Source: Azolla caroliniana (taxonomy: Eukaryota > Plantae > Polypodiophyta). Taken from it: a stretch of DNA of 64,000 bases. Of this stretch, positions 889 to 43,430 are shown piece after piece. Location: assembly GCA_043228905.1 (NCBI GenBank), contig JBHGNT010000014.1, forward strand, positions 1,178,001 through 1,242,000, read 5' to 3'. Position 1 is the stretch's first letter, and every line of letters begins with the position of its first letter. A program made the position numbers and the translations under genes. The notes below the pieces were generated by a model. That model did not search any database. It was not told the origin of the DNA and saw nothing but the letters and a program-made list of their open reading frames with translations.

Positions 889-1296
889 TGTTGAGAGACA
901 AGCTCAACATCGGCCGGATCGGCTGAGCAAACCGAGGACCAGATTGGTTGGAAACCGGTACACAGACCGGTGCGTAGGAAGGCCGGATCGGTGCGGAAAC
1001 TAGGAGGCCATCGGAAAGATATTCCGCAAGGAATATATTTGGGAGTTAGTGTAGGGGCTCCTCAATGAGCATTGAAGTACTTTCAGTACTTTTGTCAGTC
1101 CGAAAAGGACTTGTATAAAAGTGTTCATTGAACACACACGATGTACAGATTGAGTATTATTTTTTAATTAAGTTCTTGTGTTTACTCTCTCTCTCTCTGT
1201 CTCTCCCGTGCGTACTATGCAAACCTAAGCTTTCCATTAAACCTGCATTTTTTGTTGTTCGGGTTCCTATATTGCTTCCGCATGCCATTCTTTTCA
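889..1296 (+). repeat. 5' LTR of copia 1 (408 bp)
   Basis: TG...CA termini, direct repeat of 5549-5957, TATAAAA near 1114, followed directly by the PBS. Confidence 0.95.
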
Positions 1297-1308
1297 TGGT
1301 ATCAGAGC
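1297..1308 (+). promoter_or_regulatory. Primer binding site (initiator tRNA-Met)
   Basis: TGGTATCAGAGC immediately after the LTR CA; the canonical plant tRNA-iMet PBS. Confidence 0.95.
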
Positions 1309-1378
1309 ACGAGGGTTGAGAACCTCTGCAATCGACTTTGCTTGAAGGAAAAACCAACAAAGAAGAACAAGAAAACCG

Positions 1379-5554: not shown

Positions 5555-5957
5555 GAGACAAGCTCAACAACGACCGGATCGGTTGGGACCGATCGGTTAG
5601 GCCGGATCGGTTGGAAACCGGTACGCAGACCGATGCGTAGGAAGGCCGGATTGGTGCGGAAACCGGGAGGCCATCGGAAAGATATTCCGCAAGGAATATA
5701 TTTGGGAGTTAGTGTAGGGGCTCCTCAATGAGCATTGAAGTATTGTCAGTACTTCTGTCAGTTCGAAAAGGACTTGTATAAAAGTGTTCATTGAACACAC
5801 ACGATGTACAGATTGAGTATTATTTTTTAATTAAGCTCTTGTGTTTACTCTCTGTCTCTGTCTCTCCCATGCGTACTATGCAAACCTAAGCTTTCCATTA
5901 AACTTGCGTTTTCTGTTGTTCGGGTTCCTATATTGCTTCCGCACACCATTCTTTTCA
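5549..5957 (+). repeat. 3' LTR of copia 1 (409 bp)
   Basis: Preceded by the PPT; direct repeat of 889-1296. Confidence 0.95.
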
Positions 5958-14354: not shown

Positions 14355-14482
14355 GTGAATGGTCTTCCACAGAGAAGGAAGACCATCTCTGCAGGAATCA
14401 ATGTAAACCAAATTGGATCTGTCTTCCTCCATTTTGTTGGTAATTCCATTTCCTTTTGTCTGCTAAGAACTCATCTTAAGCT

Positions 14483-17056
14483 ATGCCATCACGGACGCTG
14501 CACCATGGCTTTTCTCCATCTCATCAATCTTCTCCCTCTTCTTCTTATACTAAACATTATGTACAGGAATTAATCGTCAATGTTCTCCCTACCATAGCCA
14601 CCGATATTGCCATTCTAGCCACAGCTACTTTTGTTTTCTTCTTCTATAATTGGTACCGAAAGATAGTGCAGCAGCAGCAACAACGGAACAGAAACAATAA
14701 GGCGGGCGCCGATGAGCAAGATATCACCCTCAAGCTTCACAGGTTCAAGTATTGGCACCTCAAGAGAGCTACAAGAGGGTTCTCTGAAAAACAGAAGCTT
14801 GGGAAAGGTGGGTTTGGCGTTGTATATCGAGGTATTCTCAGGGATGGTCGAGAAGTAGCAATCAAGAAATTAGATCTCTTCTCTCTTCAAGGTGAAAGAG
14901 AGTTTGAGAACGAGATTTCCATCTGTAGTAATCTTTCTTCTCCATACCTGGTGAATCTAATTGGTTATTGTGCTCACGGGAAGAGGATCAGGCTTCTTGT
15001 ATATGAATATATGCAGAATCGGAGTTTGCAAGAAGCTTTGTTTGACCAGAGTTATCCTGTTCGATTGGATTGGAACAAGAGGTTCAAGATCATCTTTGAT
15101 GCTGCGAAAGCTCTTGAGTTTCTTCATTTGCAATGCAATCCTCCGATCATACATGGTGATATTAAGCCGAGCAATATCCTTCTCGATAGTAGCTTTTCGG
15201 CACGGATCTCGGACTTTGGTCTTGCTAGATTCAAATTTGAGGAGTACTATGGATCAGATAGTGATGATAGGAATTCTACATTTAGTGGGATTAATCTTAC
15301 AACACCGGCTACTCCTCGAGGATTCAGACATGGAGCTTCGGAACAAAGTGTGTGTGAGACCAATAGGCACTCTGCTATGAGGAATCATGGTCTTTCAGAT
15401 TACAAGCTTTCATTAATGGAGTCCCAATCTGTGAAAAACGAAACTCTTAATACAAAAGGATCTCCCCACGAATTGTCATGCGGACAAGAGGATCTCATGT
15501 ACAAACATACCCCCCAACCTTCTGTTATTAGCCTCTCACCAGATCGATCGAGGCAAACTAAACATCATATTGCTAACAATCTGGAATCTGCATTTCCAGA
15601 GTTGAAGGAAAATAAAATGGTTATGGAATCTTCATATTTGGTGTTGAAGGAAGTTAAAATGGATATGGTATCTACATATCCAGCTTTGAAGGAAGTTAAA
15701 GTAGACATGGAATCTATGTATCCAGTGATGGAGGAAAAAAGGAATATGGGATTCACATATCGGGTATTGAAGAAAGAAAACCTGGTTATGGAAACTTCAT
15801 ATCCTGTATTGAAGGAAGTTAAAATGGATACGGAATCTATCCATCCAGTGTTGAGGGAAGAAAGAATGGATATGGAATTTGCATATCCAATGCTAAGTGG
15901 AGAAAACCTGGCAGTGAAAATAGGTATAGAACCTTCATACCCATCATTGGAGGAAGAAGTGGATATGGGATCTACATATCCAATGTTGAATGAAGAAAAA
16001 CAGGCTGTAGAACTGGAGGTGTCTACAACCAATGCACAGAGCAAGACTCTTGTTAATGGTCTTAATCATAGAGATATCAGGAGCAAAGATGAGGAATTGA
16101 TAGGAAAAAAGTATGTTATGGATTGGCTAGGATCTGATCACTCCTCCAATAAAGCTAAACCCAAAGAGATTGCTCCTGTTGATGTGGGAAATAATGCCAC
16201 TAATGAAAAAATAAGTAATCTCAACAGTCAATCCAGAAGAGAAAAAAAGATGAATATACGGAGAGAGAGTCGGGAATGGTGGAAAGATGAGTATTTTGCT
16301 GAGCTGAGTAGTAAAAGCGCAGTGAAAGATGATGGAAGGCCAAAGGAGACTTCTAAAGACTTCTTTGGATGGGAGTACAATGCAGAAACTAGGAGAAATG
16401 AACGAAGACTCATGAAAGATGGCATAAGAAACATGTCCAAACAGTGGTTCCGGAATGCTAGGAATAGCCAAGAGAGGCAATCGAGAAGGATGCCCTCGAT
16501 ATCGAATGATATGTTGTGGAGTGGAGAGCTTAATCACAAAGGTCAAATTAACAATGAATTGAATAGCAATCAGCAATGGAGTGGTGAGATTCTGGTAAGA
16601 GATGTTAGTAGTACAAGTATGAGAGGGACAATATGTTATGTTGCACCTGAATACGGAGGCAATGGCTTAGGCTCGGAGAAGGGTGATATATACAGTTTTG
16701 GCGTGCTTATACTTGTGATTCTGTCAGGACGACGACCTATCCAAATCTCGGCATCGCCAATGAAAGAATTCGAGAAAGCGAACTTGATCTCGTGGGCTCG
16801 ATCTTTATCGCATTCCAACAAGATACTAGATCTTGTAGATGATAGTCTCGGTGGAGAGTATGATAAGAAACAAGCTCACTTGTGTATAACATTAGCATTG
16901 CTATGTCTTCAACGAGTACCTACCCGCAGACCTGACATATCTGATGTCATTAAGATTCTTTCGGGACAGATTACCACACCTTCATCGCCAGTTGACCTCT
17001 CACCTTCTCCAAATGCAAAAATACGTTCCGAAAGGCCTCCTCTTTCACCAAAGTAG
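14483..17056 (+). CDS. Membrane-anchored receptor-like cytoplasmic Ser/Thr kinase, RLCK-XI type (At2g45590/At4g25390-like), 857 aa, intronless
   Basis: MPSR start, N-terminal hydrophobic helix, LGKGGFGVVY, VAIKK, HGDIKPSN, DFG at ~15212, a long insert with family-type WWKDEYFAELS and WSGEL motifs, then SMRGTICYVAPEY and DIYSFGV. Confidence 0.93.
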   Translation: MPSRTLHHGFSPSHQSSPSSSYTKHYVQELIVNVLPTIATDIAILATATFVFFFYNWYRKIVQQQQQRNRNNKAGADEQDITLKLHRFKYWHLKRATRGFSEKQKLGKGGFGVVYRGILRDGREVAIKKLDLFSLQGEREFENEISICSNLSSPYLVNLIGYCAHGKRIRLLVYEYMQNRSLQEALFDQSYPVRLDWNKRFKIIFDAAKALEFLHLQCNPPIIHGDIKPSNILLDSSFSARISDFGLARFKFEEYYGSDSDDRNSTFSGINLTTPATPRGFRHGASEQSVCETNRHSAMRNHGLSDYKLSLMESQSVKNETLNTKGSPHELSCGQEDLMYKHTPQPSVISLSPDRSRQTKHHIANNLESAFPELKENKMVMESSYLVLKEVKMDMVSTYPALKEVKVDMESMYPVMEEKRNMGFTYRVLKKENLVMETSYPVLKEVKMDTESIHPVLREERMDMEFAYPMLSGENLAVKIGIEPSYPSLEEEVDMGSTYPMLNEEKQAVELEVSTTNAQSKTLVNGLNHRDIRSKDEELIGKKYVMDWLGSDHSSNKAKPKEIAPVDVGNNATNEKISNLNSQSRREKKMNIRRESREWWKDEYFAELSSKSAVKDDGRPKETSKDFFGWEYNAETRRNERRLMKDGIRNMSKQWFRNARNSQERQSRRMPSISNDMLWSGELNHKGQINNELNSNQQWSGEILVRDVSSTSMRGTICYVAPEYGGNGLGSEKGDIYSFGVLILVILSGRRPIQISASPMKEFEKANLISWARSLSHSNKILDLVDDSLGGEYDKKQAHLCITLALLCLQRVPTRRPDISDVIKILSGQITTPSSPVDLSPSPNAKIRSERPPLSPK
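15581..16009 (+). repeat. Ten in-frame ~42-bp (14-aa) coding repeats within the kinase insert
   Basis: Units such as MESSYLVLKEVKMD, MVSTYPALKEVKVD, METSYPVLKEVKMD, MGSTYPMLNEEKQA. Confidence 0.92.
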
Positions 17057-21272: not shown

Positions 21273-24200
21273 GCAACTCGGCAAGATGTCGGCAACCTGC
21301 CGATCCGTTAGAACATACACCAGTTTGACTTCACCGGAAAGGACTCGTTCTCGGATAAAGTGGTAATTAATGCACCTCAATGTGCTTTGTCCAGGCATGG
21401 ACGATGGGGTTCTTTGCCAATTGGATGTTGATGAGGTTGTTGCAGTAGATTGTTGTCGGGTCTAACACCTCCACTCGCAGATCCTTCAGTAACCATTTGA
21501 GCCAAACGGCCTCACATGTTGCGATAGCCGCTCCTCTATACTCAGCCTCAGTGCTTGACAGTGCAACTGTCGACTGCTTGTTGCTGCACTAGGCGACCGC
21601 GAAGCTTCCAATTGAAAACGCATAATCAGATGTAGACCTGCGGTCGCCGACATTTCCGGCCCAATCAGCATCTGTATAGCTGACTAATTGTCCAACTATA
21701 CTAGCCCGATACAACAACACTCGATCTTTAGTGCTGTTGACATATCGCATGATCTGATGCACACATTTCAAATGTTCGATAGATCAGTCCAACCGGATAA
21801 CTCATGTCCGATTGAGTGATCGTCAGATAGATAAGGCCCGACTATCTGGGGAACTATGTCGCGTCACAAGTTGCTCCCGACCCTTGGCGAAGCTTAACAT
21901 TTTGGTCTAGAGGAGTCGATACAGATTTGCATTCCGTCATACCGAATTCGGTGATGACAAGCTCATCCACATAGAGCAAAATGCTCACTAGCCCATTCTG
22001 ACCCTACCAAATGGAGAGTGAAGAGTCTGATTTCTACGTTCCATGCTCGTGGGGCTTGCTTGAGTCCATATAGGGACTTCTTTAGTCGGCAAACAACCAA
22101 CGTGTTCATTCCAGACTGAAATTTGGGGGGTTGAACCATGTATACTTGTTCCACAAGGTCGCCTTGCAAGAATGCGTTCTTTACATCCATTTGATGTAGA
22201 TGCTACTCGGTGGGGCTTGTAGCACTTCTACCCCTTCTACTCATCGGAGTAGCCAACCAAGATACATTTCTCCGCCTTGGCATCTAGTTTCTTTTGCTTC
22301 TAATCCGGTATATGCACATATGCAATGTTACCGAATACTCAAAGGTGTGCCAAGTTCTACTTCCGCTCGAAATACAGTTCGTGCGGCGACACCTTTGTCC
22401 CTGAGGTAGATATCCAATTCTGTATGTAGACTAACAATCGGCAACGGTTCGGTTTGAACCGAACCAAACCACAAAACCGCGGTTTAATGGCTTAACGATT
22501 TCAATGGTTCGGGTTCGGTTCAGGTTTAGGTTTTTCTAAACGGTTCGGTTCGGGTTTGGTTTGGTTTCAACAGTAAAAACCCACGGTTTTAATGGTTTAA
22601 TGGCTTAACGGTTTCAATGGTTCGGGTTCGGTTCAGGTTTAGGTTTTTCTAAACGGTTCGGTTCGGGTTTGTTTTGGTTTCAACAGTAAAAACCCATGGT
22701 TTTAACGGTTTAACGGTTTCTATTTTTTAATTTTTTTAATTTTTTAAAAAACATTTTTAAAAATTATAAAAAAATTCTAAAAAAATTTTAGAATTTGTTT
22801 TTTAACAATCTTTTCATTTTTACACCTTATTCATTCTCACATTTTAGGAACATCTTAAAAATTCTAAAAATTCTATATAATGAAATATTATAAATTTAAA
22901 AAATTAAAAATTAGACCTATGTTGAAAACCGAACCGCGGTTTTTACGGTTTAATGGTTTAACGGTTTGAAAAAAGGTTTAACGGTTCGGTTTCGCAGTTT
23001 GGTTCAGGTTTCAAAAATTTTAAACGGTTCAGTTTGGACCCTCTCAAACCGAACCGAACCGTTGCCGATTGTTAATGTAGACGGCTATCCAAACTACATC
23101 GGCCCCAATAAATCAGGGGCATGCTCTTCTTCTCCATCATCACCCTCACTGCTTCTTCCAACATCCAGTTCTGCTCTGGCGTGTATCTACAAGAGAACTC
23201 TCGACGAATTCCCTTGGTCTGCAAATAACTTGTGAACTAGCTGGAAAATATTCTTTTCTGCCATTCGATATCATACACTTGATCTTTCTTTCGGTTTCTC
23301 GTTCGACATGACTCTTTAGGTCTCAGAAACATGAGAAGACATCGCTCCTCTTCTCGATCAAGTAGATCCAAGTGTGTCGGCTGAAATCGTCGATGAAATA
23401 GATGAAATATCGACACCCACCAATGTTCACGTTTTGTGTCGGTACCCACACATATGAATGGATAAGATCGCGCCAATTCCAACTCTGATTCTTCTCATTG
23501 GGGAATGGAAGCCTATGATGCTTCCCAAACTAACAAGCTTCACAAGTTTGGCCTTTCCGGCCACTAAACTTCGGTAGTTCGGAAACCTGTTCCGATTGAA
23601 TCTCCTAAAGCTTTCGGAAGTTGATGTGGCCGATCCGCTTATGCCATAGATTGATGTTAGACTCAACCTTTTTTCCACTCACGAACATAGCAGTGCCAAC
23701 ATCATTGGTTTCGAGTATGAACATTCTTCCATCCCTTCGCCCTTGTGCGATGATCTGGCCTTCCTCCTCGATGAAGCATACGTGGTGAGTGAACCAAACC
23801 TGCATTCCTTGATCCACAATCTAAACGACTAACACCAAGTTCTCGGCGTCTATACATGTAGGACGTTCCTCATTATTCCCTTCTGGCCGACATAGGTCAG
23901 AAGGACATCCCCGATATGCTCGATGGGATGTGGGGTGTCATCTCCGGTTTCGACCACCCTTGATTTCTTCGGCTTCTCGAGAAAGGAGAACCACTCTTTG
24001 TGGTTCGTCATGTGGTTTGAAGCTCCAGAGTAAACATACCAAACTTCCTCCGACTTCGAGTCGGAAGCAGCCATTCGGTTGACCTTATTCTTCATTACAA
24101 GGGTTGGTCCTCACTTGGCTCCCTCTTAGCTTCTAGCAAAGTGCGATAAGTGATGTCTATTTGCGTCCCTTCGGCTCGATCAGGCTTTGTCTGAATCTGC

Positions 24201-24797
24201 CCTTTTCTTCCAGCACTCGCTTTCTTTGTGTCCCGTCGGCCACAGTACCAACTATCTCTCGGCACCGCCTTGACTCCCCCTGCTTCCGGAGGATCCAATA
24301 CTGCTGTCGGCACCATCTTTGTGCCTCCAATTATGCTCTTGTCGGCCGCCTGCATTGCGCTCCAACTCGCCTTGTTCGTCAAGACCACGGTTCCGATCTT
24401 CCTCCATGTACAACATCTTGTTGTCGGTGTGCGTACTTGTCAACGCACCCACGTGGTTCTCCTCTACAAGGAGCATCGACTGTAAGTCGAAAAATGAAGG
24501 CGTATTCTCCCTTGTACATATCGTCGTCCTGAATGCTCCAAAATTCGACGCCAAGCACCCGAGGCAGACCTTGCACCATTTCATCCTCCTTGATGGTCAC
24601 GTTGATGGATGCAAGAGAGTCACAAATCTCCTTGATTCGGGTTGTATAATTGGCCACTGACATGTCTTTCTGTCGGACGTTTCTCAACTCTTGTTGGAGG
24701 TGCAGCTTCGAGGCCGTAGTGCTTGCGACAAAGACCTTCTTCAGGTTTCTCCAAGCTTCCTTTGGCATCGTGGCATCCCGGATATGGCTAAGTAGAT
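21273..24797 (-). mobile_element. Degraded Ty1/copia internal region (copia A), same family as copia 1
   Basis: Minus-strand fragments of gag (AWRNLKKVF), protease (WYVYSGASNHMT), GAG-pre-integrase (WHKRIGHINF), integrase, RT ([25 protein letters not shown]) and RNase H (YTDADWAG); many deletions and stops. Confidence 0.9.
22432..23074. mobile_element. Non-autonomous hAT element / MITE (643 bp)
   Basis: Perfect 23-bp TIR TAACAATCGGCAACGGTTCGGTT; 8-bp TSD ATGTAGAC at 22424-22431 and 23075-23082; subterminal CGGTT/AACCG arrays; AT-rich core; internal ~120-bp duplication. Confidence 0.95.
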
Positions 24798-25171
24798 TGT
24801 CAAAGTTAATATGCGAAAGCTTTGCCATACTGGTTTATCCGGTCAACAATAGAAAAACAGAGAAAAGTTTAATGGAAGCTTAGAATACACAAAAGAGACA
24901 CCGGAAAGCATGAACTCAATTTAAAATAATAACACTTTGTACATAGAATGTGCTAAGAGAGCACTTTTATACAAGTCCTTATACGGACTAACAAAAGTAC
25001 TAACAAGTACTTCAATGCTCATACAAGCGACTGGTTGTCATGAAGACAACATTTTGGTTATCAAGAATCGAACCCACGACTTCTTGGTCTATGTGTTGAA
25101 CCCTTAACCATTGTAATAACATATATGTTGTGTAATTATAATAATTATGTTTCTAGTTATTACAAGATATT

Positions 25172-25295
25172 AGAATATTCTAGAACATTCTAGATTATTC
25201 TAGAACATCCTTTAATATTTCATGATTATATTTCTTATCATAAAATCTAAAATATTCTAGAACATTCTAGATTACTCCATAAGGACCTATAAATA
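25172..25295 (+). promoter_or_regulatory. Heat-shock-element array and TATA box in the chromovirus U3
   Basis: aGAAtaTTCtaGAAcaTTCtaGAttaTTCtaGAAc (25172-25206); second TTCtaGAAcaTTC at ~25255; TATAAATA at 25288; also present in the 3' LTR. Confidence 0.75.
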
Positions 25296-25504
25296 ACTGT
25301 CTATACATTCGTTTCAACTCATTCGGTTCAACACCAGTCTTTAGCCCTTAGCCTACTCATTGTAATCTTGTTTCATCATAATATAAGCTCATTTCTATTT
25401 CAAGTCTTATCTCTCTCTCACTCTCTCTCTCTCTCTCATGCACACACACACACACCCTCTCTCTTTCACTCTCGCTCTATCTTCTACCCACGAGTCTCGA
25501 CAGT

Positions 25505-25515
25505 TTGAACCGAAT
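25505..25515 (+). promoter_or_regulatory. Self-priming PBS
   Basis: TTGAACCGAAT is the exact reverse complement of ATTCGGTTCAA at 25321-25331, which starts 33 nt after the TATA start; no TGG tRNA-type PBS is present. Confidence 0.85.
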
Positions 25516-25586
25516 ATTTTTGTTTCCTTTTCCAATAACCCTAGCAAGCTTTCTTCTTTTCCCTTCTTTCTTTTTCTCCCTCAGTT

Positions 25587-26714
25587 ATGGAATCCGTCAG
25601 CAAGCAAGAGTATATGCGTGTCCTTTCTGAGCTCGACATGCTCACAACTAAGTTTGTGGCATTAGAGCAAGAAAATCATAGGCTACTCGGGGATTTACAA
25701 CAAGTGAGTACCGAGAAAGCTCATCAATATGAGGAGTTATCACAACGGGTTCATCAACTCGAGGCTACTATATTAACATTACGAGAACAAGCGGCGGGGG
25801 TTCAAAACTCCCCAAGGGAACCAAAGATTAGCCTCCCTACCAAGTTTGATGGTACCCGATCTTTGTTTCGAGGTTTCTTGAATCAAGTCCGTTTGGTGAT
25901 TCAATTACATCCTAATCGGTACCCAACTGATGCTGCTCGTGTGGGATTAATAGGAACCTTGCTAAGCGGTACCGCATTAGCATGGTTTGCACCACTTCTA
26001 GAGAAGAAATCACCATTGTTGGAGGATTTCGAGGCATTCATTAAAGAGTTTCAAGCTAGTTTTGGAGACACCGATAGCACTAGAACGGCAATAAACAAGA
26101 TTCGAAGACTCTGACAAGGAGATCGTCCCGCTTCAGCCTACGCAACAGATTTCCGTCTCTTGGCATGTAACATCCCTTGGGATGAGGCAGCCTTAATGGA
26201 TCAATTTCGTTAGGGTTTGCGTAATGATGTCAAAGATCTTCTTCTTACTTTCCACGAAGATCCAAAGTCTCTTACAGAGGCCATTAGTCGAGTTGTGCGA
26301 TGTGATAATCGCCTATTTGAGCGACGTTCTGAACGTCAACAAATGCTATGCCGTCAACCGGAACAGACGTATGCTTCAATAGTCGCAACACCGCCACAAG
26401 TTCCCAGACCCGTTACGAGGGATGGTCCCACTCCGATGGAAATAGAGTCAACACAACGTCGAGGGCCTTTATCAGATGCTGAGAAACAACGACGTCGGGC
26501 GCATCACCTCTGCCTCTATTGTGGTGGTCAAGGACATATTGTTGTGAATTGTCCACATAAACCCAAACGACAAGTTTACCAAGTAAGTGCACATGACAAC
26601 CCTACCATGAGTTCTACTATCACTTCTAATAACTTAACTACTAAGCCTAATAACCCATGCCATGAGAATAGATTTGATGTCTTGAGCCAATTAGAGGATG
26701 TGTTAAACGAATAA
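25587..26714 (+). pseudogene. Chromovirus gag (coiled coil, PKISLPTKFDG capsid, CLYCGGQGHIVVNC knuckle)
   Basis: ORFs 25587-26114 and 26217-26714 lie in one frame, separated by premature stops. Confidence 0.92.
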
Positions 26715-29700
26715 GTCCGGCCAAAATAGGAGCCATTTGGTTGGACCATCCTAGATATGTAGAGTTTGTACCTAGTTGTGGTTCCATTTCATCAAATCAA
26801 GTTAGTAGAGTTTTTTTTGCACAAGTCGAACTTAGCACATCTACAGGTCATCGAGTCCTAGCCTCTGCCCTCCTAGATTCTTGAGCCAATTCTTGTTTCA
26901 TGGATCGCGAGTTTGCATTGACCCAAAACATCAACTTGAACAAGCTCCCGAACCCAGCAGCTGTAGGAGTCATTGATGGTCGCCCTATAGCATCAGGTAA
27001 TATAGTCGAAGAGTCTGAATCAATTCGTGTAGTCCTAGGTAATTTGGCTAGTATCATCTCATTCAACATCATTAGTAGTCCAGAGCACTCTCTAGTTCTT
27101 GGTATTCCTTGGTTTAAGTTACATAACCCAACTATTGATTGGAGAAAAAGAACTATTGAAGAGGTCATAGTACATTCCGAGTCTCTTGAAACTGCAACAA
27201 AGGATCTAGGATCCCACATGATTTCAACAATCTCTATACATCAGTTACGAGAGGATGGAAGGAAGGAAGACATGATGGTGTTTGCGGTTTTAGCAACTCC
27301 CTCATCTAGCTCACAAGAATTGGGGGTCCAATTACCAAAGAAGTACATAGAATTCTCCGATGTGTTCGATAAGGTGAAGGCTAATAGATTACCAGAGCAT
27401 CGACCCTATCATTGCCCAATTGATTTGCAGCCAGGAAAAGAGCCTCCATGGGGGCCAATTTATAACCTTTCGCCCACGGAGTTAGAGGTTCTTCGAGAAT
27501 ATATAGATGAGAACCTGGCAAATGGTTTTATCCAACATTCAAGATCTCCTGTTGGTGCACCCATCTTTTTCATTAAGAAGAAAGATGGTACACTTCGTAT
27601 GGCCGTGGATTATCGGGGCTTGAATAAAGTGACTATTAGAAACCGATATGCTCTACCATTGATCTCAAGCCTTCTAGAACGCCTCAGTGGAGCAAAGTAT
27701 TTCACGAAGTTAGATCTTCGAGGTGTCTACAACCTTGTTCGAATTCGTCCGGGGGATGAATGGAAGACCGCATTCCGCACTCGCTATGGTCATTTTGAAT
27801 ATACAGTGATGCCATTTGGTCTCACGAATGCACCGGCAGTTTTCCAACATATGGCGAATGACATTTTTCGAGACTTCCTCGATATCTTCATCATAGTTTA
27901 CTTGGATGATATCTTGATCTACTCAAAAACTCAAGAGGAGCATGAGATACATGTTCGCCAAGTTTTGCAGCGGTTACGAGAGTATGGTCTCTATGCAAAA
28001 TTCGAGAAGTGTAGTTTCGACTAGTGTCAAGTGGAATTTTTGGGGTACATAGTCTCTTCAAATGGCATCTCTATGGATCCATCAAAGGTCCAAACAATTT
28101 TGGATTGGCAAACACCACAGTCTGTGCGAGATGTACAATGTTTTTTGGGGTTCGCAAACTTTTATCGCAAGTTCATCAAAGATTATTCAAAGATTGTATT
28201 GCCCCTCACTCAACTAACACGCAAGAATCAACCATTTGTATGGGGTATAGATGCGAACTCTGCATTTGAGGGTTTAAAGCAAGCGTTTACATTTGCACCA
28301 ATTTTAATGCATGTCGATCCAATGAGGCGCTTTATACTTGAAGCTGATGCATCTGATTTCACACTCGGAAGGATACTATCCCAGATTTGTGAAGATGGCG
28401 AACTGCACCCTATGGCTTTTCACTCACGGAAATTTGAAGCCGCAGAAATCAACTATGAGATTCACGACAAAGAGCTTCTTGCCATTGTGGATTCTTTTCA
28501 ACAATGGCGTCATTTTTTGGAGGGTTCTTCTCAACAGATTATTGTCTTCAATGATCACAAAAATCTAACATACTTCCAAAGTGCTCGAGTCTTGAATCAT
28601 CGACAAGCTCGTTGGGCGCAGTTCTTAACTCGTTTTGATTTTGTAATTCTATATCGCCCTAGGATGCAACAAGGAAAAGCAAATGCTTTATCTCGACGTT
28701 CATATATGGAACTTCAACCCGGAGAGGCCGCATTTGAAAGTCAAAAGCAAATCCTCTTAGGTCCTGATCGTCTACAAGTAATGGCAATACATACTATCAA
28801 CACACCAGGAGATTCGAGGCTTCTTGATTCCATTCGGGAGCAGATTGCGACAGATGCATTCACCCGAGAGGTTTTGAGTCATATTATCCCAGATCGTGCT
28901 TCCAGCTCTCAATCTAAAAATCCTCATCTAGACTACACCCAATTCAATTGGCATGATGGTTTGCTTTTTTGACAAACTCTCTTGTATGTGCCTGACGGTC
29001 CTTCTCGACTCAAAGTCGTGCAACAATGTCATGACACGCCAATGGCTGGACATTTCGGCATCCACAAGACTTTTGAGTTGATTTCTCACCGATATTGGTG
29101 GCCACGGCTTTGCCATTTTGTTACGGATTATGTTCGTAGTTGTGATACAGGTTGCCGATCAAAAAAGCCTCGACATCATCCATATGGCCTATTATAGCCA
29201 ATGCCTATTCTGGAGAGCCCATGGAAATCTATTTCCTTGGACTTTATTACGGATCTTCCACCTTCCAAGGGATTTGATTCTATTCTCACGGTAGTCGATC
29301 GTTTTACGAAGATGGCACATTTCCTTCCATACACGAAGACCATTACTAGTCAAGAGACAGCCGATTTACTCATGCGGGAGGTGTTTCGCCATCATGGTCT
29401 TCCAGATTATATTATCAGTGATCAGGGTCCCCAATTCATCTCGAAATTTTGGCGGCACATGTTCAAACTCTTACATACTTCTTGTAAACTCTCTTCCAGC
29501 TACCATCCAGAGACTAATGGGCAGAGTGAGCGCACCAACCAAACAGTCAAACAATATCTACGTTGTTTTGTCAACTATCAACAAGATGATTGGGTGGATT
29601 TATTACATTTGGCGGAATTTGCTTACAACAACTCCGAACATTCTTCTACTGGCTATTCCCCATTTTTTGCTAACATTGGGTACCATCCTCGTTGGACGAT

Positions 29701-30340
29701 GCTTGAACATCCCGAACTCCCAAAAAACCCGATTGCTAAAGATCGGCTCACTCGACTCCAAGAAATTCAAGATATACTTTTGCATCATTTATGTGATGCC
29801 CAAAACACTCAAAAGAAGATTGTTGATCGTCATCGGCATGATTCATCGACTACGTTTCAAGTAGGAGATCGTGTATGGCTCTTACAAGGTAGCATTAAAA
29901 CCACTCGACCTTGCTACAAATTGGATTATCAACGTTTCGGCCCATATGTGATCTCTAGTAAGATCAATGATATGACATTTCATCTTGATCTCCCTCCTCA
30001 TATGCGTCTTCACCCGGTCTTCCATGTTTCACTTTTGGAGCCCTACACAACAAGCTCTATTCCGGGTTGTCTTACACCTCCCCCACCTCCAATTGAAGTT
30101 TCTAATGGCTCTGTGAATATGAGGTTGCTGTTATTCTCGACTCCAAGATCATCCGCAAAAAACTATATTATTTGGTTGATTGGTTAGGTTATACACCTAA
30201 TGATCGAACATGGGAGCCTGTCGAGCATCTTGCTAATGCCTCTGACATGGTTGTTGCATTTCACAACAAATATCCCCATAAACCAAGTCCGAACTCTTGT
30301 CTTCCGACTCGTGGAACTCGTCATCGAAAGGGGGGGATAA
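26708..30340 (+). pseudogene. Chromovirus pol in the -1 frame (protease, RT, RNase H, integrase, chromodomain)
   Basis: LLDS*A protease (TGA at 26882), [30 protein letters not shown] plus SLDFITDLP, GPY, and a frameshifted chromodomain EYEVAVILDSK...YLVDWLGY...TWEP at ~30115-30290. Confidence 0.93.
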
Positions 30341-32013
30341 TGTCATGAAGACAACATTTTGGTTATCAAGAACCGAACCCACGACTTCTTGATCTATGTG
30401 TTGAACCCTTAACCATTATAATAACATATATGTTGTGTAATTATAATAATTATGTTTCTAGTTATTACAAGATATTAGAATATTCTAGAACATTCTAGAT
30501 TATTCTAGAACATCCTTTAATATTTCATGATTATATTTCTTATCATAAAATCTAAAATATTCTAGAACATTCTAGATTACTCCATAAGGACCTATAAATA
30601 ACTGTCTATACATTCGGTTCAACACCAGTCTTTAGCCCTTAGACTACTCATTGTAATCTTGTTTCATCATAATATAATCTCATTTCTATTTCAAGTCTTA
30701 TCTCTCTCACTCTCTCTCTCTCTCTCACGCACACACACACCCTCTCTTTCGCTCTCGCTCTCGCTCTCACTCTATCTTCTACCCACGAGTCTCGACACTG
30801 GCACTGACTCCCAAAAATATGCCTATGTACTAGGCTAGATCTGTAGGCCTCTAACGGCCTACCGGTTACAATCCGATTTGGCTCTTGGTTCCAGATACCA
30901 TCCGGACACCGATACGGCTCTTCGTTTTGAACTCCGATACGGCTCTAGCTTATTCAACCAATCTAGATCCGGTTGAGCTTGTCCGCTCAACACTCCCCCT
31001 CAAGCTCAACTTGAGGTCGGATCGCAGTGTCTGTGTCTGTGGTAGTTGGCCCTCTCCTCCGGCTCCCCCTGGCGTCCTCCCGTCTTGCTCGCACTCCTCG
31101 ACCCGTCCGCTTCCGCTTCCCACGACCTGTCCATTCCCGCGCACCTCGACCTTCTCGATCGGCTTGTCTGCTTATAAGGCCCATCTCAGCTCTTTTGCTA
31201 TTACAACTCCGACGCATCTCGACCCATCAGTTTCTACATGTCAGTGTCGACATCCGCTGCCTCCTTGTCCATTTGGCCTTCAGTTGATCCGGTTCATCCA
31301 AGTCAACCACCTCTTCCGAATCAGGTGCATCTGATTCATTCCAGCTCTTGTCCGGATTGGCTGTCTCCAATCCGTCTTTGGTTCCCAAACCTTTCACGAC
31401 ATCGGCTCACGTCTGTGTCTTGGTCTTCTTGCCCTTCTTAGCTTTACCTCCCCCTTGTTTGGTTGGCTTTGGCTCGGGCTCTCCGTTCTGGTGGCTCCCC
31501 TTGCGTCCAGTCTTGGCTTCTTCAGTCGTCCCGTGCACTCCGACTTCTTCAGTCGGGCCGAAGTCGAAATCGGTTTTCAACTCGGCTTTTCGGTCGTCCT
31601 CATCATTCTTCCTTTCATTCCTCCCCCTCAAGTTCGGCATATCGAGGTGTTGCACACCCAATGCATCGGAAAATTGCCGCAACTGGTCTAAGCTAAGGGG
31701 TTTGGTGAAGATATCGGCCACTTGCCGATCCATCAGAACATACAATAGTTCCACTTTACCGGAGAGAACGCGCTCTCGGACAAAACAATAGTTCACCTCG
31801 ATGTGCTTAGTCTAGGTGTGAAAGACAGAGTTCTTCGTCAACTAGATGTTGTTGAGGTTGTCGCAATAGATCGTTGTTGGATGAGACACCTCCACTCATA
31901 AATCCTTTAGGAGCATCTTGGGCCATATGGCTTGGCATGTCGCGATAGTCGCTCCTCGGTACTCGACAGTGCTAATGTCGGTTGCTTCTTACTGCTCCAG
32001 GCAACTGCGACGC

Positions 32014-33300
32014 TGTCATGAAGAATGTGCTTCACAATATAAAAATGAACTTAAATATTGTATTAAGTAGTACTTGAGAGACTTGAACCCACACTTTTAT
32101 ATACGAAGTACAATATACATATCACTAGGCTAGGCTATTTATTTTTAGAAGTATTGTAAAGAATATGCTTCATGATATAAGAATGAAGCTAAATATTGAT
32201 TGAGTAAAATTGAGAGACTTGAAACCTCAACCTTGCCTTGTATACCAAGCACAAGATATACACCACTAAGCTAGGTTATTTATTTTTTAAAATATATTTC
32301 CATCATTGTACTTATCCTATATCTATTTTCATACATGAGAGCTCAAATGAGCATGATGGCTATCATGCATCACATGTAATGCATGTGCGCCAAATGACAA
32401 TCATGAAATAGTGTATCCCAAAAATTCAACTTGTTTGCAATCAAAACTGCATTTCTCAAGTTTGGCATAAAGAGCATACTTTCTTAGGCGTTCAAGTACT
32501 TTCCGCACATGTATATCATGCTCCTCCTATGTTTTAGAGTAAATAAACAGATCATCTAGGTAGATGATTAAAAAGATATCCAAGAAATCCCGGAAAATGT
32601 CATTTGCCATATGTTGAAATACTGCGGGTGCATTTGTGATCCTGAAAGGCATGCCTGTATGCTCGAAATGACCATATTGAGTATGAAATACAATTTTCCA
32701 CTCATCTCCCAGTCGAATTTGAACAAGATTATATGCACCCCTTAGATCAATTTTGGTAAAATGCTTTGCCCCACCAATGTGTTCTAAGAGACTGGAGATT
32801 AAAGGTAGAGCATACCTATTCCTTACGGTGACTTTATTTAAGCCTCATAGTCCACGACCAAACGAAGGGAGCCGTCCTTTTTCTTCACAAAAAAGATACC
32901 GACGTGTATGCTAACTCTCTCAATTATCTTCCATTTTGAGTGTTTTTCCATTGGTTGATATTTTTTCCATTGTGTTCTTGTAGAGTCTTGAATGATTTGG
33001 TCAAACATCGTATTGTTGTAAGTCCATCTCTTATATCCACAAGTCTCTTATTTCATAGAGTCTTGCTTGGTTTAATAAGGCCTTCATTTCAAATACAATC
33101 ACCAAATCTTGAAAAAAATTGCTCCACGTGATTATGACTTCTTATGATCACGATTGGCTCAAATATCAAACTACATATGATTGAGATTACCTTGATTTTA
33201 AACATGAACTCCAAATGTTAAGAAATCTTAAGCCAGATTTATGTAGTATGGAATCATCCTATCAACATTCTACTTTATTGTAGATTCCAAACATCAAACC
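32014..33300. mobile_element. Second chromovirus-related remnant: LTR-like start plus decayed minus-strand RT
   Basis: Starts TGTCATGAAG like the 25036 LTR; two ~139-bp tandem units follow; minus-strand [19 protein letters not shown]...[13 protein letters not shown] at ~32720-32860. Confidence 0.75.
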
Positions 33301-34108: not shown

Positions 34109-37064
34109 TTAACATTGAGTAGAGGGGTTTTCCATGCACAAGGAGGTATCACCAGATACTAACATACTTTGCTTTTCACATCGAGCATAAGGGCCTTCAC
34201 ATAAACTTGTATTATCACCAGACCCCCACATATTTGCATCATTAACATGATTATCCTGTGCTTTGTCATGATTGTTCGCATCATTGATCACAGACAAGTT
34301 AATCATATGCTGATCACCTCGATCCTCACAAGTGAGGTTACCATTTGTGACAAATCTGGCATGGCCATTGCCGTAAACACTTCCAAGATCGGCATCATCC
34401 TTCACATATAGACTACAAGGATCAACCATGTTCACACCGTCAAGGCAGACGACATGATTATCATCTGATTGGTGGCCAAATTTAGAATTGATCACTTGGT
34501 GATCATTATTATTGCCAATCTCTTGGTGAGCCATGTCCAGATTGACTAGAGAGTTGTCTCTTGAGATGCTTCTATGGTCACCACCATCATTGGCCTTGCC
34601 TCCTTCAAGAGCATCAAGAACATCATTCACGGTAAGTGCATTGCAAGATGTGGAAAGAACATGTGAACCTAGAGTGCTATCTTGGCCATCATTACTATCA
34701 GGAATCGAAGAAGGTGATGAATCCATGACTAGCAATGATTGCCATTGGAGCTTATCATGTTGTCCGTCATGGCTATCCCCACCTTCTAGATCCTTCTCAT
34801 GCTGTGAAGTGCATTGATCGTGGTCAATTATACATGATTGCTCTACATTAGCCCATCCTTCTTCATTCTCATTATCATCCTCCTCGTTCTCTAAAAGTAG
34901 CACATTGTTGAGAGACATATGATCATATTGCTGATGCATAGGATGGCAATGCACATCAGGATACGCTTTCCCAAAATAGAGCTCAGCTGGGGGATGATCA
35001 ACCAAAAGAGCTGATTGCCATTGGTTCTGATTGGATCGTTCATGCTGCCCAAAGTTTCGATTCTTCTCGTCTTCTATTCCTTCACTTCCATGTTGCAATA
35101 AGTTTTCTTTATCAATGATGCACGATTGCTCTACGTTGGTCCAGGTAGCCGTCCCTTGATTTGCATGCATTGGATCCTTCATGAGGAGCATACCATTATA
35201 AGTGTTATCACAAATGGTGGAACATGTTGCCTCCAAAGAAGCTCCAGTGCAAACCATGGACTCAGAATTCCTCTCCATTTCTACCTTCATTAGCAAACAA
35301 ACACAATCATTCCATGTAATCTCCACTTAGTTCAAATTTCTCTCTATTTAGCTTGTCATTTCTCGCCAAGATTACACAATTACTTATATTCATGATATTA
35401 ATAATACGTCCTTTGCTAACAAATAAAAATTATCATCAAAAGCCTCTGTTTCAATACTTTCCATGTACAATCATATATATCTCATGATTCAGCAGACCAA
35501 TATCATCTCTTTTCTACCTTCTTTAGAAAATAAAAACTCCCAATATGACATTCTACCTTTGTTAGAAAGTAAGAACTCCAATACAATTCCCAATAAGACA
35601 ATCATACTCCCCTTTTAACTTCATTTGCATTCTCAAATATTATTTCAATTTACCTCCCTTGCAATATTGTCTATTTAGTAATTTCTGTAACCTCTGATTC
35701 TATCTTCATTAGCAAATAAGACTTCTATTTAGCTCATTGGCTACATTGTGTAAAAATGACACTAAACTCTCCATTTCTATATTCATGAATAAAACAACAT
35801 TGTACTTTTACCTACATGCTCAACAATCCATTCATATAATCAAATCGGTTCATTTTGGCCAATGACCTTATCATTCTCAAACAGATCTTCTCCATTGCTT
35901 CCCTCATTCACAAATAACTTTGCAGCCTATCTGGCTCAGCATCAAATAATATTATCAAATGGATTCAGTATATCCAATAACATTGTCAAATGTGCTCTCC
36001 CTTTCTGATCTCATCATCATTTAAGTTTGCCTCAAATTGATTCTATGCAGTTCTACCCTCTTCAGCAAAGTAAGCAAATAGCTCTGTAAGCTTTCTTTAC
36101 TTAATTAGCAAAATTAACAACCCCTTTTATTGATTGGATTAAATCTCTCCATTAAATTTCGTCTGTTTCCACTAATCAACTCTGGACTTTCTATTTAGCT
36201 CATTGACAGGAGAGTTAAAATTGAACTTCTCCAATTCTTTCTTCATTAACAATTAGCTTCATATAATCTCCATTTAGTTTTTACTTACTTATCAGCAAAG
36301 ATTTTATCATGTCACATCCATATCTAATCTCAGTTTCTGTGACATACACAATCTCTTAAGAATTTACAGCAATAAAGTTTCATTCATAAATTAATGGATA
36401 GTCAAAAACAAACAAGAAACAAATGAGTCTTCGGACTTACACTGCTTATCAGTTTGAAATTTTGATTTTGTGGATCGGGTGATAGCCTTTGTTCCATGAC
36501 AGGGGGTAATAATGCATGTGGTGGCTGTTGTTCATGAAACATCATTTGATATGGCATCAATGGCATTTCCAGGCTTGGATACTGCAAATATCTAATCCTA
36601 TCGATGATAAGCCCATAGAAGGTCTCTAATCTCTCTGCATGCTGCTTCAATTCAATCACGCTCATACCATCCAAAGGCTGGAGCCACCAGTTGCCCATAT
36701 AATGCCTATGATTAATATAATCAGCATGAAGTTGTTGCTCCAATGCATGGTGCCTCTCCTTCTCAAGCTCTAGATCTTGAAGAAGACTGTTATATTCATT
36801 CTCTAGGCGCCGAATAAGCTCAATTTTCTCCTTATCCACAGACACTGGCCTTTTCATGATCTTATCTATGACATAATCTATGCATGGGTGTCCAAAAGAG
36901 AAAGCTTTTCCTGCTTGTGAGAACACTATTATGCCCACCTCTGACCCACATAGAATTGAGAGCTCGCTTGCCTTCTTTATGAGACCCACTCTTCTCTTCG
37001 AGAAGCATACTTGCCTCGCACTTGGATTCTCGATCTTCTTGATCTCAATCTTTGCGCGGCCCAT
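34109..37064 (-). CDS. Type I M-alpha (AGL62-like) MADS-box transcription factor; proposed exons 37064-36441 and 35284-34109, ~599 aa
   Basis: MGRAKIEIKKIE...RQVCFSKRRVGLIKKASELSILCG...AFSFGHP followed by a coiled coil and WW motif. Phase-0 donor AGT|GTAAGT at 36441 and phase-0 acceptor GCTAATGAAG|GTA at 35284 join it in frame to the 405-aa ORF. The MADS exon is certain; the second exon is inferred. Confidence 0.8.
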
Positions 37065-37126
37065 CTTAGATAAGTGACCTCCTCCTTAATGAGAACTTCT
37101 TCAGTATTATCAATCATATGCAGTCG

Positions 37127-40060: not shown

Positions 40061-40910
40061 CCTATACCATACTTCCCATTTCCAAAACATTGCATTCTTG
40101 CAATGAAAAATCAAATCAAGGAACTTACATTTAAAAAAGTTCCTTCTCCCAAGTGGCACCACATATAGTTTGATCCAACCATTTGTTTAGATTTCAAATT
40201 TTTAGTTCAAGAATTAAGAATGTTTTCTGGCAATTGAGGTTTAATCGTCATGAATTACCAAATATTTTATGGTTAACATATTATCGTTGAATCCCATAAG
40301 TTCTTTAAGCTTAGGTGACTAACATGTTAAATAGGATGAACATTACCAATGAACCCTTACAATCTAGGACTATGAAAGGTTCATAATAGGATGGAGCTAA
40401 TTTAGATCACTTACCCATACATAAAGTTTTGGAATTAGGAGGTACATCCAAGAAAACTTTTTTACCAAGGTTAAGAACACGAGTATGCACATTATTATCA
40501 ACATAAAAATGTGCTCTATCTTCAATAGCCTTAATATTATCTCATGCAATATACAACATTTCTAGCATATCCCTAAGTTATTGTGTGCTCTCTAATTCAT
40601 CTCAATGAAAATTAACATCTACTAGAGCTTGTGGGTGAAAATTATATATCAACATAAAAGGACTATATCCATTTGAAGTATGTTTAGAGTTGTTATAAGA
40701 AAAATCTAATAAGAGGAGGTATAATCCACTTCACAACTACTTATTGTTGCCCTCTAACGACTATGGTTGCCTTCTTCCAGTCGTTGCCGGTCATTACAAC
40801 CATTGTCATCGCCGCTAGCCTTTCAAGTGACATTGGTCGACGTCACCCAACACCCCCCCCCCCCCCCATTTTTTTTACAATTTCTAATAGTTCTCACCTC
40901 ATTCAGCAAC

Positions 40911-41282
40911 ATGTCTCAACAAGCGTCTTCAACTTCAATTATAGGTAAAACCTTCACCGAGAGAGGGGCTCTGATTAGTTTTATCAAGGACCATTTCCAT
41001 GCTCAGAATATCATCGTTGTATTGGATAAGCATAGTGACAACCGAAAAGTCACTTTCAAGTGCTACTATGGGGGGAAATATCGCAACCCTCTAGGCTTGA
41101 CTGACGATACTCGCAAAAGACAAACGGGGACTCGTCTAATGGACTGCCCATTCTTCGTTAGAGAAAACTTCTCAAAGAAAATGGGACAGTGGACTATTAA
41201 AAAGGCAGCTATTGTGCACAACCATCCTATTTCTGACAATCTTCGTGGTATATCAACGGCTCGTAAACTAACTAGAGACAGT
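40911..41282 (+). pseudogene. MULE/Mutator transposase N-terminal FAR1 (WRKY-GCM1 fold) zinc domain, truncated
   Basis: CYYGGKYRN...RKRQTGTRLMDCPF...W...HNHP; cut off by an LTR starting at 41283. Confidence 0.75.
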
Positions 41283-43430
41283 TGTGGCAAATAGCGCTTT
41301 CCTATATATATTGTCGTGTTGTGTATAATGTGGCAAGATTAATAAATAGTTAGTTGGGATAAAGACCAAGAATGATAAATATATAACTAAAATGCTATAA
41401 ATAGAGACGGTTACTAACTACATATTTTTAGTCATATTTTTAGTCATCCTGTGTATACTACATTGGTGGAGATGATAGGCTCTTGTCATGCCCACTCAAA
41501 GGGGTGTTCAGTATTCCAACCGACCTCCTTACATAGCACAACAAGCCACCTCTCCGCATTAGCAGTTGACAATCATCGTCCTGGCACCATCAATAGCAGA
41601 ACACTCTCTCACACACTATGCATCAACATGAAGGTGAAAGCCCCATGAAAGCATTGTTAGTATGCAACCTAAGTTCATCGAGCAGACACACATTAACACG
41701 TCCATGGAGTAGATGCTTCATGCAATGTCGATAATGATGATGCAAGTAAACCATATGAATCAAACACTCAAGATGTGGCTTACTAATCAGTCGACAAGCG
41801 CAATGACCGACAGATAGAAAGATTCAAGAATCCGTCCAAGATCCTTCTTGGGTCTCCCTACAGAAGATGTCTTAGCCTGGTTGGATCATTTTGACAACGT
41901 TGCGAGTTACCATGCATGACACGATGAAAGAAGGCTTGGAGTTGCGAATGGTGTTGGAGCACGTTGCCGCCACATGGTTCATTCAACAGCCTAAAGAAAT
42001 CAAACAAAATTGGACTTACTTACGCGAACAACTCATACAACACTTTGCAAACAATGACGTAACACAAACAACCCTACAACAGTTAAACAACCTACGAAAA
42101 TAAGCATATAGATCAATTGTACAATTTGTCGTCAAGATGAAACAGTTGTTACTGTGTATTGACCCCAAAATGAAGGAAACCATGAAGCTCTATTTTCTAT
42201 TCCCATGATCACGCCACGACATATACCGTTGTATCAAGGACCAAGGCCCAACTACATTCCAAATGGCCATTCAAATCACACAATGAATTGAGGCACTCGA
42301 TTACGTCGACCTATCACAATCAACATCACCTACAAATAACAATAATCATAAAAACGATAACTGAACCCACCGCTATCCTAATGGATATAGACATCCAGAA
42401 TGCACACTTCCAGCACTAAAAACAACTTACCAAATAGAAATAATCAAGGCAAGCATGTTGTTTCTATTGTAACAAGTACAACCATGTTAAAACGTAAGTT
42501 TGCAGCCTCCAAGCATCATTAGAATGCACAAATCCATTTGGTCGACTCTGCATGGAAACAACCATTGAGCGGTACGTTGACAAAAGAGCAACTCTTGCAC
42601 ATTCAAGCCGCAACCTCTTCCGGGTGCAGTGTATGTTCCATAGAAGCACAAATAAATAACACACCACATGAAACCCTCCTAGATTTAGGGAGCACAATAT
42701 CTTCAATTAGTGTAGATTTAGTTAGGTCACTGAACTTACCCACTTTGCCCACGGCACCACACACACAAATTCACTTAGAACAGCCACAAATATAACTAGC
42801 CACAATACGTTGTATCCTCTGGCACTTCCTCGACCTATTCTACAAGCCTGCAAAGACAACCAAGATCAATCTTCCGGTGCAACATGCTATTCACAGCCAA
42901 TTAAGCACCAATTCAAATGGCACCTTGACGACATTCACCATTAGATGACCATAAGATCAATCAAGCAGTGTGAACCGAACCGAACCGAACCGTTGAAACC
43001 ATTAAGCCGTTAAACCGCGGTTTCGTGGTTCGGTTCGATTCAAACCGAACCATTGCCGATTGTTAAAGGGAACACAATTTACATGGTCCACATCTTGCGC
43101 AAAACGTTCTAATCAAATCAAACAACTCATCAAGGATGCAACCTCATGGACCCTTTCCCAACTTTGATTCATGGCAACAAGTACATTTTGGTAATAACTG
43201 AATACCTCACCCACTAGCGTGCCATGGTTGCACGCGCCCAACTTTTGTCTTACCGAGGATCACAATTCCGCACCGAGATCATTCGCATACTAAGCCCCAC
43301 TTTGGGCATCACATAAATCTTCACATTGGCATACCATCCGCAAGCTAATGGGCTCACCGAACATGTAAATTATAGAACAATTAAGCAGGTCATCTTGGCA
43401 TATGTGGACCCAATGCACCAGTAATGGGAT
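41283..43430 (+). mobile_element. Decayed Ty3/gypsy element with a short LTR and tRNA-Ala PBS
   Basis: LTR TGTGGC...CTACA 41283-41462; PBS TGGTGGAGATG 41464-41474; gag remnant, protease-like LLDLGSTISSI, integrase remnant (GNKYILVITEYLT, AYHPQANGLTE); RT/RNase H missing. Confidence 0.78.
42971..43065 (-). mobile_element. One-ended fragment of the same hAT MITE family as 22432-23074
   Basis: Reverse complement of the MITE left end, terminating in ...CCATTGCCGATTGTTA. Confidence 0.88.

What the first reader, a model, noticed from the sequence alone, without database searches (positions are those of the whole stretch)
25288..25515. tRNA-independent self-priming chromovirus in a plant genome
Seen: two bases after the 5' LTR, where a TGG-type tRNA PBS should be, lies TTGAACCGAAT (25505-25515). 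It is the perfect 11-nt complement of ATTCGGTTCAA at 25321-25331, which starts 33 nt after TATAAATA and so sits at the expected transcription start. Known: fission-yeast Tf1 primes minus-strand synthesis with the first 11 nt of its own RNA, released by RNase H, and Tcn1-clade chromoviruses occur in fungi and non-seed plants. Inference: this element uses the Tf1 mechanism. The 3' LTR has lost one copy of a 14-bp direct repeat here, which shifts the primer 14 nt closer to TATA.
Basis: partly seen in the sequence, partly recalled or inferred. Interest (0 to 1): 0.82.

Follow-up and report, generated by a model that had tools for sequence, protein, structure and literature searches.

The report
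Self-priming retrotransposon family in a fern
A dead jumping gene in what is likely a fern genome has no tRNA docking site; instead 11 bases after its left repeat pair with the predicted start of its own RNA, relatives keep this pairing with different letters, and so the family likely primes its own copying, a trick proven in fission yeast and already predicted for this group in mosses, though not reported from ferns in the papers searched.

Summary
Observation confirmed. A decayed 5,762-bp chromovirus (25036-30797) has TTGAACCGAAT 2 nt after its 5' LTR. This is the exact complement of 25321-25331, which starts 33 nt after the TATA box. There is no TGG site. 33 of 80 related loci kept both the TATA box and the LTR junction, and 28 of those 33 have a 10-12 nt primer/PBS match with at most one mismatch, starting 31-35 nt after TATA. 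In 19 aligned sequences, 7 of 10 pairs change on both sides and 99.5% of cells pair (0/500 shuffles reach this). A second, weaker inner stem also covaries. The 3'-LTR 14-bp loss is the derived, rare state. Transcription start and RNase H cleavage are untested. The mechanism is not new: REXdb predicts self-priming for 83% of 1,500 plant Tcn1 elements, and this scan noted it four times in moss DNA. What is added is the host. A neighbouring kinase groups with ferns, where Tcn1 was reported as not found. Tcn1 membership rests on anatomy and a tree that has no labelled Tcn1 reference. Verdict: new member of a known kind, interest 0.3.

The parts
25031..25035 (.). left target-site duplication CTGGT (right copy CTGGC, 4 of 5 identical)
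25036..25502 (+). 5' LTR, 467 bp, TG...CA
25288..25295 (+). TATA box
   Evidence: a TATA box lies 31-35 nt before the primer in 28 relatives
25306..25319 (+). 14-bp unit, 12/14 like the primer-bearing unit that follows; missing from the 3' LTR
25321..25331 (+). predicted self-primer (predicted first 11 nt of the transcript)
   Evidence: TSS not mapped
25333..25339 (+). conserved motif after the primer; predicted 5' arm of an inner stem
25499..25504 (+). LTR end plus 2-nt spacer; predicted 3' arm of the inner stem
25505..25515 (+). primer-binding site TTGAACCGAAT, not TGG-type
25587..26714 (+). gag (Ty3 capsid, DUF4939, CCHC knuckle read from the sequence); premature stops at 26112 and 26211
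26702..26708 (+). candidate -1 frameshift site GTTAAAC at the gag/pol overlap; TTAAAC in 12 and TCAAAC in 3 of 15 relatives shown
   Evidence: frameshifting inferred
26705..30340 (+). pol: protease (weak Pfam hit), RT, RNase H, integrase, SH3, chromodomain; stops at 26882, 28022, 28970, 29195 and a frameshift near 30110
30115..30294 (+). chromodomain with Y, W, Y at the aromatic-cage positions (positions recalled)
   Evidence: Pfam Chromo E 5.7e-12
30326..30337 (+). polypurine tract
30341..30797 (+). 3' LTR, 457 bp; TATA at 30593, primer copy at 30612-30622, only 19 nt apart after the 14-bp loss
30798..30802 (.). right target-site duplication CTGGC

Best explanation
This is a decayed, full-length Ty3/gypsy chromovirus, likely of the Tf1/sushi (Tcn1-like) group and likely in a fern genome, whose primer-binding site is complementary to its own LTR rather than TGG-type, so its family likely primes minus-strand DNA synthesis with the first 11 nt of its own RNA. 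Steps: (1) transcription starts at the A about 33 nt after TATA (inferred from spacing; not mapped). (2) The 5' 11 nt fold back onto the PBS 173 nt further on (complementarity and covariation shown), helped by a short inner stem between the motif after the primer and the LTR end (covariation shown, weaker). (3) RNase H cuts after nt 11 to free a 3'-OH (inferred from Tf1). (4) RT extends it through U5 and R; a normal polypurine tract primes the plus strand (tract shown, use inferred). This copy cannot move by itself (six premature stops and a frameshift, shown). Its 3'-LTR deletion would probably also move the start site past the primer in any progeny (inferred).
For: Exact 11-nt complement 2 nt after the LTR, 0.25% by chance. 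28 of 33 related loci with TATA and junction show a 10-12 nt match with at most one mismatch; all 28 primers begin with A, and 25 of 28 start 32-33 nt after TATA (search window 28-37). 15 primer classes: 101 of 105 variable positions pair with their own PBS, against a mean 3.1 of 7 across classes; 0 of 100,000 permutations reached it. On 19 aligned sequences, 99.5% of cells pair, 7 of 10 pairs change on both sides, score 0.79 against 0.16 shuffled and at most 0.17 slid. Inner stem: 80.5% paired, 5 of 10 pairs compensatory, 0/500 shuffles. In three DNA runs the 40 listed variant places include none inside primer or PBS but eight in the TATA-primer spacer (31 more places not shown). Anatomy fits REXdb Tcn1: 5-bp TSD, 5.8 kb, overlapping gag/pol, chromodomain. 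RT-RH is 57.5% identical to a Naganishia (basidiomycete) element and 48% to Cucumis and Tanacetum elements; those two with Closterium form a clade that excludes it (100/100). Host: the kinase at 14483-17053 groups with Adiantum (99/97) and a Pteridium protein; AU tests reject grouping it with bryophytes, lycophytes or seed plants (p 7e-5, 6e-5, 3.5e-4).
Against: No RNA 5' end or cleavage data. 5 of the 33 loci fail: L086-L088 (8/10, near-identical to each other), L069 (4/10, PBS apparently lost) and L034 (no primer; LTR apparently truncated). The junction motif used to find loci fixes the first three pairs, so only positions 4-10 are a test. The whole 220-nt leader does not fold unusually well (z -1.66; 12 of 200 shuffles as good). 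The third duplex of the Tf1 'pretzel' is not seen in the window's fold, and the inner stem is short in this copy. The RT backbone is unresolved in the careful tree; an AU test does not reject joining the self-priming set with the seed-plant elements (p 0.30); no labelled Tcn1, Tf1, CRM, Galadriel, Galahad or Mordred sequence was available. The fern call rests on one gene. The hosts of the related contigs are not known. Related rows are not independent, so shuffle counts are not probabilities.
Confidence: 0.88

Rival explanations
1. A host tRNA fragment ending in the T-loop primes at TTGAACCGAAT, since GGTTCAA resembles the tRNA T-arm motif (recalled); the LTR match would be secondary.
For: The window's primer ends in GGTTCAA. 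Half-tRNA priming exists in some plant Copia lineages (PMC6317226). The host tRNA set could not be searched.
Against: Only 5 of 15 primer classes end in GGTTCAA; others such as AAGGTGAACAA, AGTCTAGTCAA and AGCAGACCAA lack that ending, yet each pairs with its own LTR. A tRNA primer does not explain the fixed TATA spacing.
Confidence: 0.04
2. The duplex is conserved for another job (leader folding, dimerisation, packaging or translation control) and priming uses some other route.
For: Covariation shows pairing, not priming. No biochemical data exist here.
Against: The 3' arm sits exactly where minus-strand synthesis must start (2 nt after the LTR end) and there is no TGG site. The geometry and 10-12 nt length match Tf1, where cleavage between nt 11 and 12 is shown (PMC7175516).
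Confidence: 0.05
3. Self-priming is right, but the element belongs to a fern-specific chromovirus clade (Galahad, Mordred or unnamed) and not to Tcn1, or the host is not a fern.
For: A PCR survey of 26 ferns and horsetails found no Tcn1 but did find Galahad and Mordred (PMC2864245 section 7). No labelled references were in the tree; the backbone is unresolved. One host gene only.
Against: Higher RT-RH identity to a fungal element (57.5%) and to vertebrate ones (52-60% over long matches) than to seed-plant elements (48%). Self-priming plus a gag/pol overlap fits the Tcn1 row of REXdb; the other named plant chromovirus rows are tRNA-primed. The kinase AU tests favour a fern.
Confidence: 0.12

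Closest known systems
Plant Tcn1-clade chromoviruses (REXdb; Neumann et al. 2019, PMC6317226: passages, supplementary file 5)
   Same: Self-priming predicted for 83% of 1,500 elements by the same criterion (10 bp or more, 0-5 bp after the LTR); 5-bp TSD; 5.5-9.4 kb; overlapping gag/pol; chromodomain with aromatic cage.
   Different: [quoted passage not shown] The passages read report no covariation test or inner stem. Additional file 1 was too large to read and may list primers.
Tf1/Tf2 of Schizosaccharomyces pombe and the Tf1/sushi group (PMC7175516 passages; bioRxiv 10.1101/2022.12.06.519325 passages)
   Same: 11-nt 5' end complementary to a PBS after the 5' LTR; chromodomain integrase; neighbouring duplex.
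   Different: Tf1 priming and RNase H cleavage are shown by experiment and need three duplexes; here two are supported by sequence and nothing is shown biochemically. Here gag and pol overlap in different frames.
SM-Tcn1, PpatensLTR and Cryptococcus Tcn1 (Novikova et al. 2010, PMC2864245: passages and sections 7-8)
   Same: Similar size, LTR about 450 bp, two ORFs, T-rich leader, high RT similarity to basidiomycete elements.
   Different: That paper found no PBS or self-primer in SM-Tcn1 and no Tcn1 clones in 26 ferns and horsetails.

Membership tests
Tcn1 clade (REXdb) | RT/RH/INT group with labelled Tcn1 references | tested here: inconclusive
   Outside the Cucumis/Tanacetum/Closterium clade (100/100); near a Naganishia element in the quick tree (SH-aLRT 88) but unresolved in the careful tree; AU p 0.30; no labelled Tcn1 row
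Tcn1 clade (REXdb) | No tRNA PBS; LTR-complementary tract of 10 bp or more starting 0-5 bp after the 5' LTR | tested here: met
   11 bp, 2 bp after the LTR, no TGG
Tcn1 clade (REXdb) | C-terminal CHD chromodomain with aromatic cage | tested here: met
   Pfam Chromo E 5.7e-12; Y, W, Y present (cage positions recalled)
Tcn1 clade (REXdb) | 5-bp TSD, 5.5-9.4 kb, gag overlapping PROT-RT-RH-INT in another frame | tested here: met
   CTGGT/CTGGC, 5,762 bp, overlap at 26705-26714
Tf1-type self-priming | Primer/PBS duplex kept by selection | tested here: met
Tf1-type self-priming | Primer is the 5' end of the transcript | not testable with these tools
   Only contigs were available; the 31-35 nt TATA spacing and initial A are indirect support
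Tf1-type self-priming | RNase H cleavage after the primer | not testable with these tools
   RNase H domain present; activity needs an experiment
Tf1-type self-priming | Three-duplex 'pretzel' | tested here: inconclusive
   Central and inner duplex supported; third duplex not seen in the window's fold and not tested across relatives
tRNA-primed plant chromoviruses (Tekay, Reina, CRM, Galadriel) | TGG-type PBS complementary to a tRNA 3' end | tested here: not met

The most novel reading that the evidence does not exclude
Self-priming Tcn1-like chromoviruses have radiated into many families in a leptosporangiate fern, a group in which the clade was reported as not found. At least two families, with different primer/PBS pairs, have left traces in this window. 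Related families from one assembly series lie on several RT branches, mixed with families from other samples. If those hosts are ferns and mosses, the clade has either jumped repeatedly between non-seed plants or is an old vascular-plant lineage lost from seed plants, which reopens the fungal horizontal-transfer question.
Probability: 0.4. Interest if true: 0.5.

Novelty: new member of a known kind. Interest (0 to 1): 0.3.

Why it matters
The mechanism is known from Tf1 and predicted in print for plant Tcn1, so this is not a new way of priming. The value is twofold. First, it gives covariation evidence, across 15 primer classes, for what had been a copy-by-copy prediction, together with a conserved inner stem and a fixed TATA-to-primer spacing that explain why LTR deletions like the one here are likely dead ends. 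Second, it likely extends the clade to ferns, which bears on whether plant Tcn1 came from fungi once, several times, or by descent.

Tried and rejected
No whole genome is held, so no in-genome copy census or host tRNA search was possible. ARAGORN and Rfam found nothing in the window. No RNA holder listed on record. Four runs guessed to be RNA or of unknown kind (X6, X7, X9, X18) laid nothing on the LTR; X20 laid 23 contigs, one with an A-run after 25386, but contigs cannot show a start and one crosses the predicted start: no verdict on TSS or expression. Exact look-ups of two host proteins failed. Cluster look-ups gave no host names for the closest pol and gag relatives. The ten viral-contig loci are distant (34-40%) and served only as outgroup. 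The first DNA alignment misplaced L020 and L025, which have long loops; these two and L050 were dropped for the pair counts (19 of 22), and all three pair fully. L039 was missed by the anchor but pairs 11/11. 47 of 80 loci lacked a junction with a TATA box upstream and were not scored; of these L023 and L077 still show 12/12 matches at contig ends. I first guessed a moss host; the kinase tree rejected it. Rejected: that the 5' LTR gained 14 bp by duplication, since relatives have the primer's 3' end 42-46 nt from TATA (window 5' LTR 44) and only one listed contig piece shows the 14-letter gap. Lin and Levin 1997 (PMC1369541) was not held. Literature searches for Tcn1 in ferns gave no report; passages of PMC8282616, PMC9033089 and PMC13469084 gave none either. 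The library lacks most subscription papers, and automated genome tables or datasets such as the Figshare set of PMC8282616, which includes two ferns, may already list fern Tcn1. The PDB search gave Ty3 RT as best hit and says nothing on clade.

Full report
Observation. The LTRs are 25036-25502 and 30341-30797, TG...CA, with CTGGT/CTGGC target-site copies. The PBS starts 2 nt after the LTR and there is no TGG. 22 of 8,943 sampled positions give an equally long match anywhere in the LTR. The 3' LTR lacks 14 bp, leaving 19 nt between TATA and primer; the two 14-mers are 12/14 alike.

The element. It is 5,762 bp: gag, then pol in the -1 frame with a short overlap, encoding protease (weak hit), RT, RNase H, integrase, SH3 and a chromodomain. 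A polypurine tract precedes the 3' LTR. It has six premature stops and a frameshift before the chromodomain. The LTRs differ at 5 of 356 aligned positions before the microsatellite. It is inserted in the LTR of a minus-strand Copia element. The family is large: 536-894 contigs per DNA run lay on 671 bases (not a copy number).

Covariation. A Gag alignment of 58 proteins fetched the best 80 of 488 confirmed metagenome loci. Junctions were found by an LTR-end motif and TATA boxes separately. 33 of 80 loci had both, and 28 of these carry a 10-12 nt complement with at most one mismatch, starting with A 31-35 nt after TATA (25 of 28 at 32-33). The sequences differ widely: ATTCCGGTTCAA, AATTCGAATCAA, AAGGTGAACAA, AGTCTAGTCAA, AGCAGACCAA and others. 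Leaving out the three invariant pairs, 15 primer classes pair at 101 of 105 positions with their own PBS and at 3.1 of 7 with others; no permutation in 100,000 reached the observed value. On an alignment of 19 sequences, 99.5% of cells pair and 7 of 10 pairs change on both sides, far above shuffled and slid controls. Five loci fail (L034, L069, L086-L088), in ways consistent with truncation or decay. The motif after the primer pairs with the LTR end in a second stem: 80.5% paired, 5 of 10 pairs compensatory, 0/500 shuffles; I read this stem off these same sequences, so the counts lean towards it. In this copy it is only 2+3 bp, and the whole leader is not unusually stable (z -1.66). No third duplex was seen.

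The 14-bp deletion. In relatives the primer's 3' end lies 42-46 nt from TATA; in the window's 5' LTR it is 44. Family contigs from three DNA runs show substitutions, not a gap, in the spacer, and one listed piece carries the 14-letter gap. So the 3' LTR is derived and the loss is rare. It falls in predicted U3, which progeny inherit from the 3' LTR, so it would probably move their start past the primer (inference).

Clade. RT-RH identity is 57.5% to a Naganishia element, 52-60% to fish and frog elements over long matches, and 48% to Cucumis, Tanacetum and Closterium elements. In the quick tree (63 rows) the window lies in a 39-row group that holds every locus with a scored primer included in the tree (SH-aLRT 94), sister to the Naganishia group (88). 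In the careful tree (26 rows) the backbone is open; the seed-plant plus Closterium clade excludes it (100/100), but an AU test does not reject joining them (p 0.30). No labelled Tcn1 was available, so membership rests on anatomy that matches the REXdb Tcn1 row.

Host. The intronless kinase ORF at 14483-17053 has its best hits in Pteridium and Adiantum. It groups with Adiantum (99/97), and AU tests reject bryophyte, lycophyte and seed-plant placements. A Psilotum protein falls outside the Pteridium/Adiantum/window group, which suggests a leptosporangiate fern. This is one gene. A second chromovirus fragment at 32412-32897 is 87-93% identical to L024, L026 and L027 but 74% to this element; L024 and L026 use a different primer. 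So at least two primer types likely coexist in this genome.

Mechanism. Shown: complementarity, position, covariation, spacing, domains. Inferred from Tf1, where the first 11 bases pair with the PBS and RNase H cuts between bases 11 and 12 (PMC7175516, passage): transcription start at the primer, cleavage, extension. Rivals are a T-loop tRNA fragment (only 5 of 15 classes end in GGTTCAA) and a non-priming structural role; both are unlikely.

Known versus new. Neumann et al. [quoted passage not shown] Novikova et al. 2010 found no Tcn1 in 26 ferns and horsetails by PCR (PMC2864245, section 7). Seven searches found no fern report, within the library's limits. Earlier notes of this scan describe the same layout four times in moss genomes (unchecked). 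Verdict: real, well supported, a known mechanism in a likely new host group; interest 0.3.

Noticed in passing
window 21283-25022 and 30972-32002 (minus strand): The chromovirus sits inside a Copia LTR; Copia RNase H lies to its right and Copia gag, integrase and RT fragments to its left, which looks like two tandem Copia copies sharing the interrupted LTR.
   Followed up: partly
window 32412-32897 (minus strand): RT fragment of a second chromovirus family, 87-93% identical to L024/L026/L027, the first two of which use primer AATTCGAATCAA.
   Followed up: partly
window about 889-5957: Copia element with LTRs about 92% alike and a TGGTATCAGAGC site after the 5' LTR, the usual tRNA-Met type (recalled): a tRNA-primed element in the same window.
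   Followed up: partly
window 26702-26733: Conserved TTAAAC/TCAAAC, gag stop, then a conserved GTCC..CCAAAAT.GGAGCC motif in 15 relatives shown: candidate -1 frameshift signal.
   Followed up: partly
window 14480-17056: Intronless receptor-like kinase ORF (RLCK-XI-like by its Marchantia hit) with a 42-bp repeat array at 15536-15934 in the insert that splits the kinase domain.
   Followed up: partly
window 36402-37085 (minus strand): Intronless MADS-box ORF, type I-like by layout.
   Followed up: no
window 40758-41294: ORF with AFT/FAR1-like domain, likely from a Mutator-type transposon.
   Followed up: no
window 25587-30340: Six premature stops despite only 1.4% LTR divergence; the copy may descend from an already defective parent, or the coding part decayed faster than the AT-rich LTR.
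   Followed up: no
P0211: A Gag 57% identical over 67% of the query is named as from the mycorrhizal fungus Cetraspora pellucida on a 7-kb contig: a real fungal relative or plant contamination.
   Followed up: no
L036, L041, L051, L065, L068, L069, L086-L088: A sub-branch with 10-nt primers and, in most, a longer leader of 500-900 nt between PBS and the gag match; earlier moss notes also mention 10-nt sites.
   Followed up: partly
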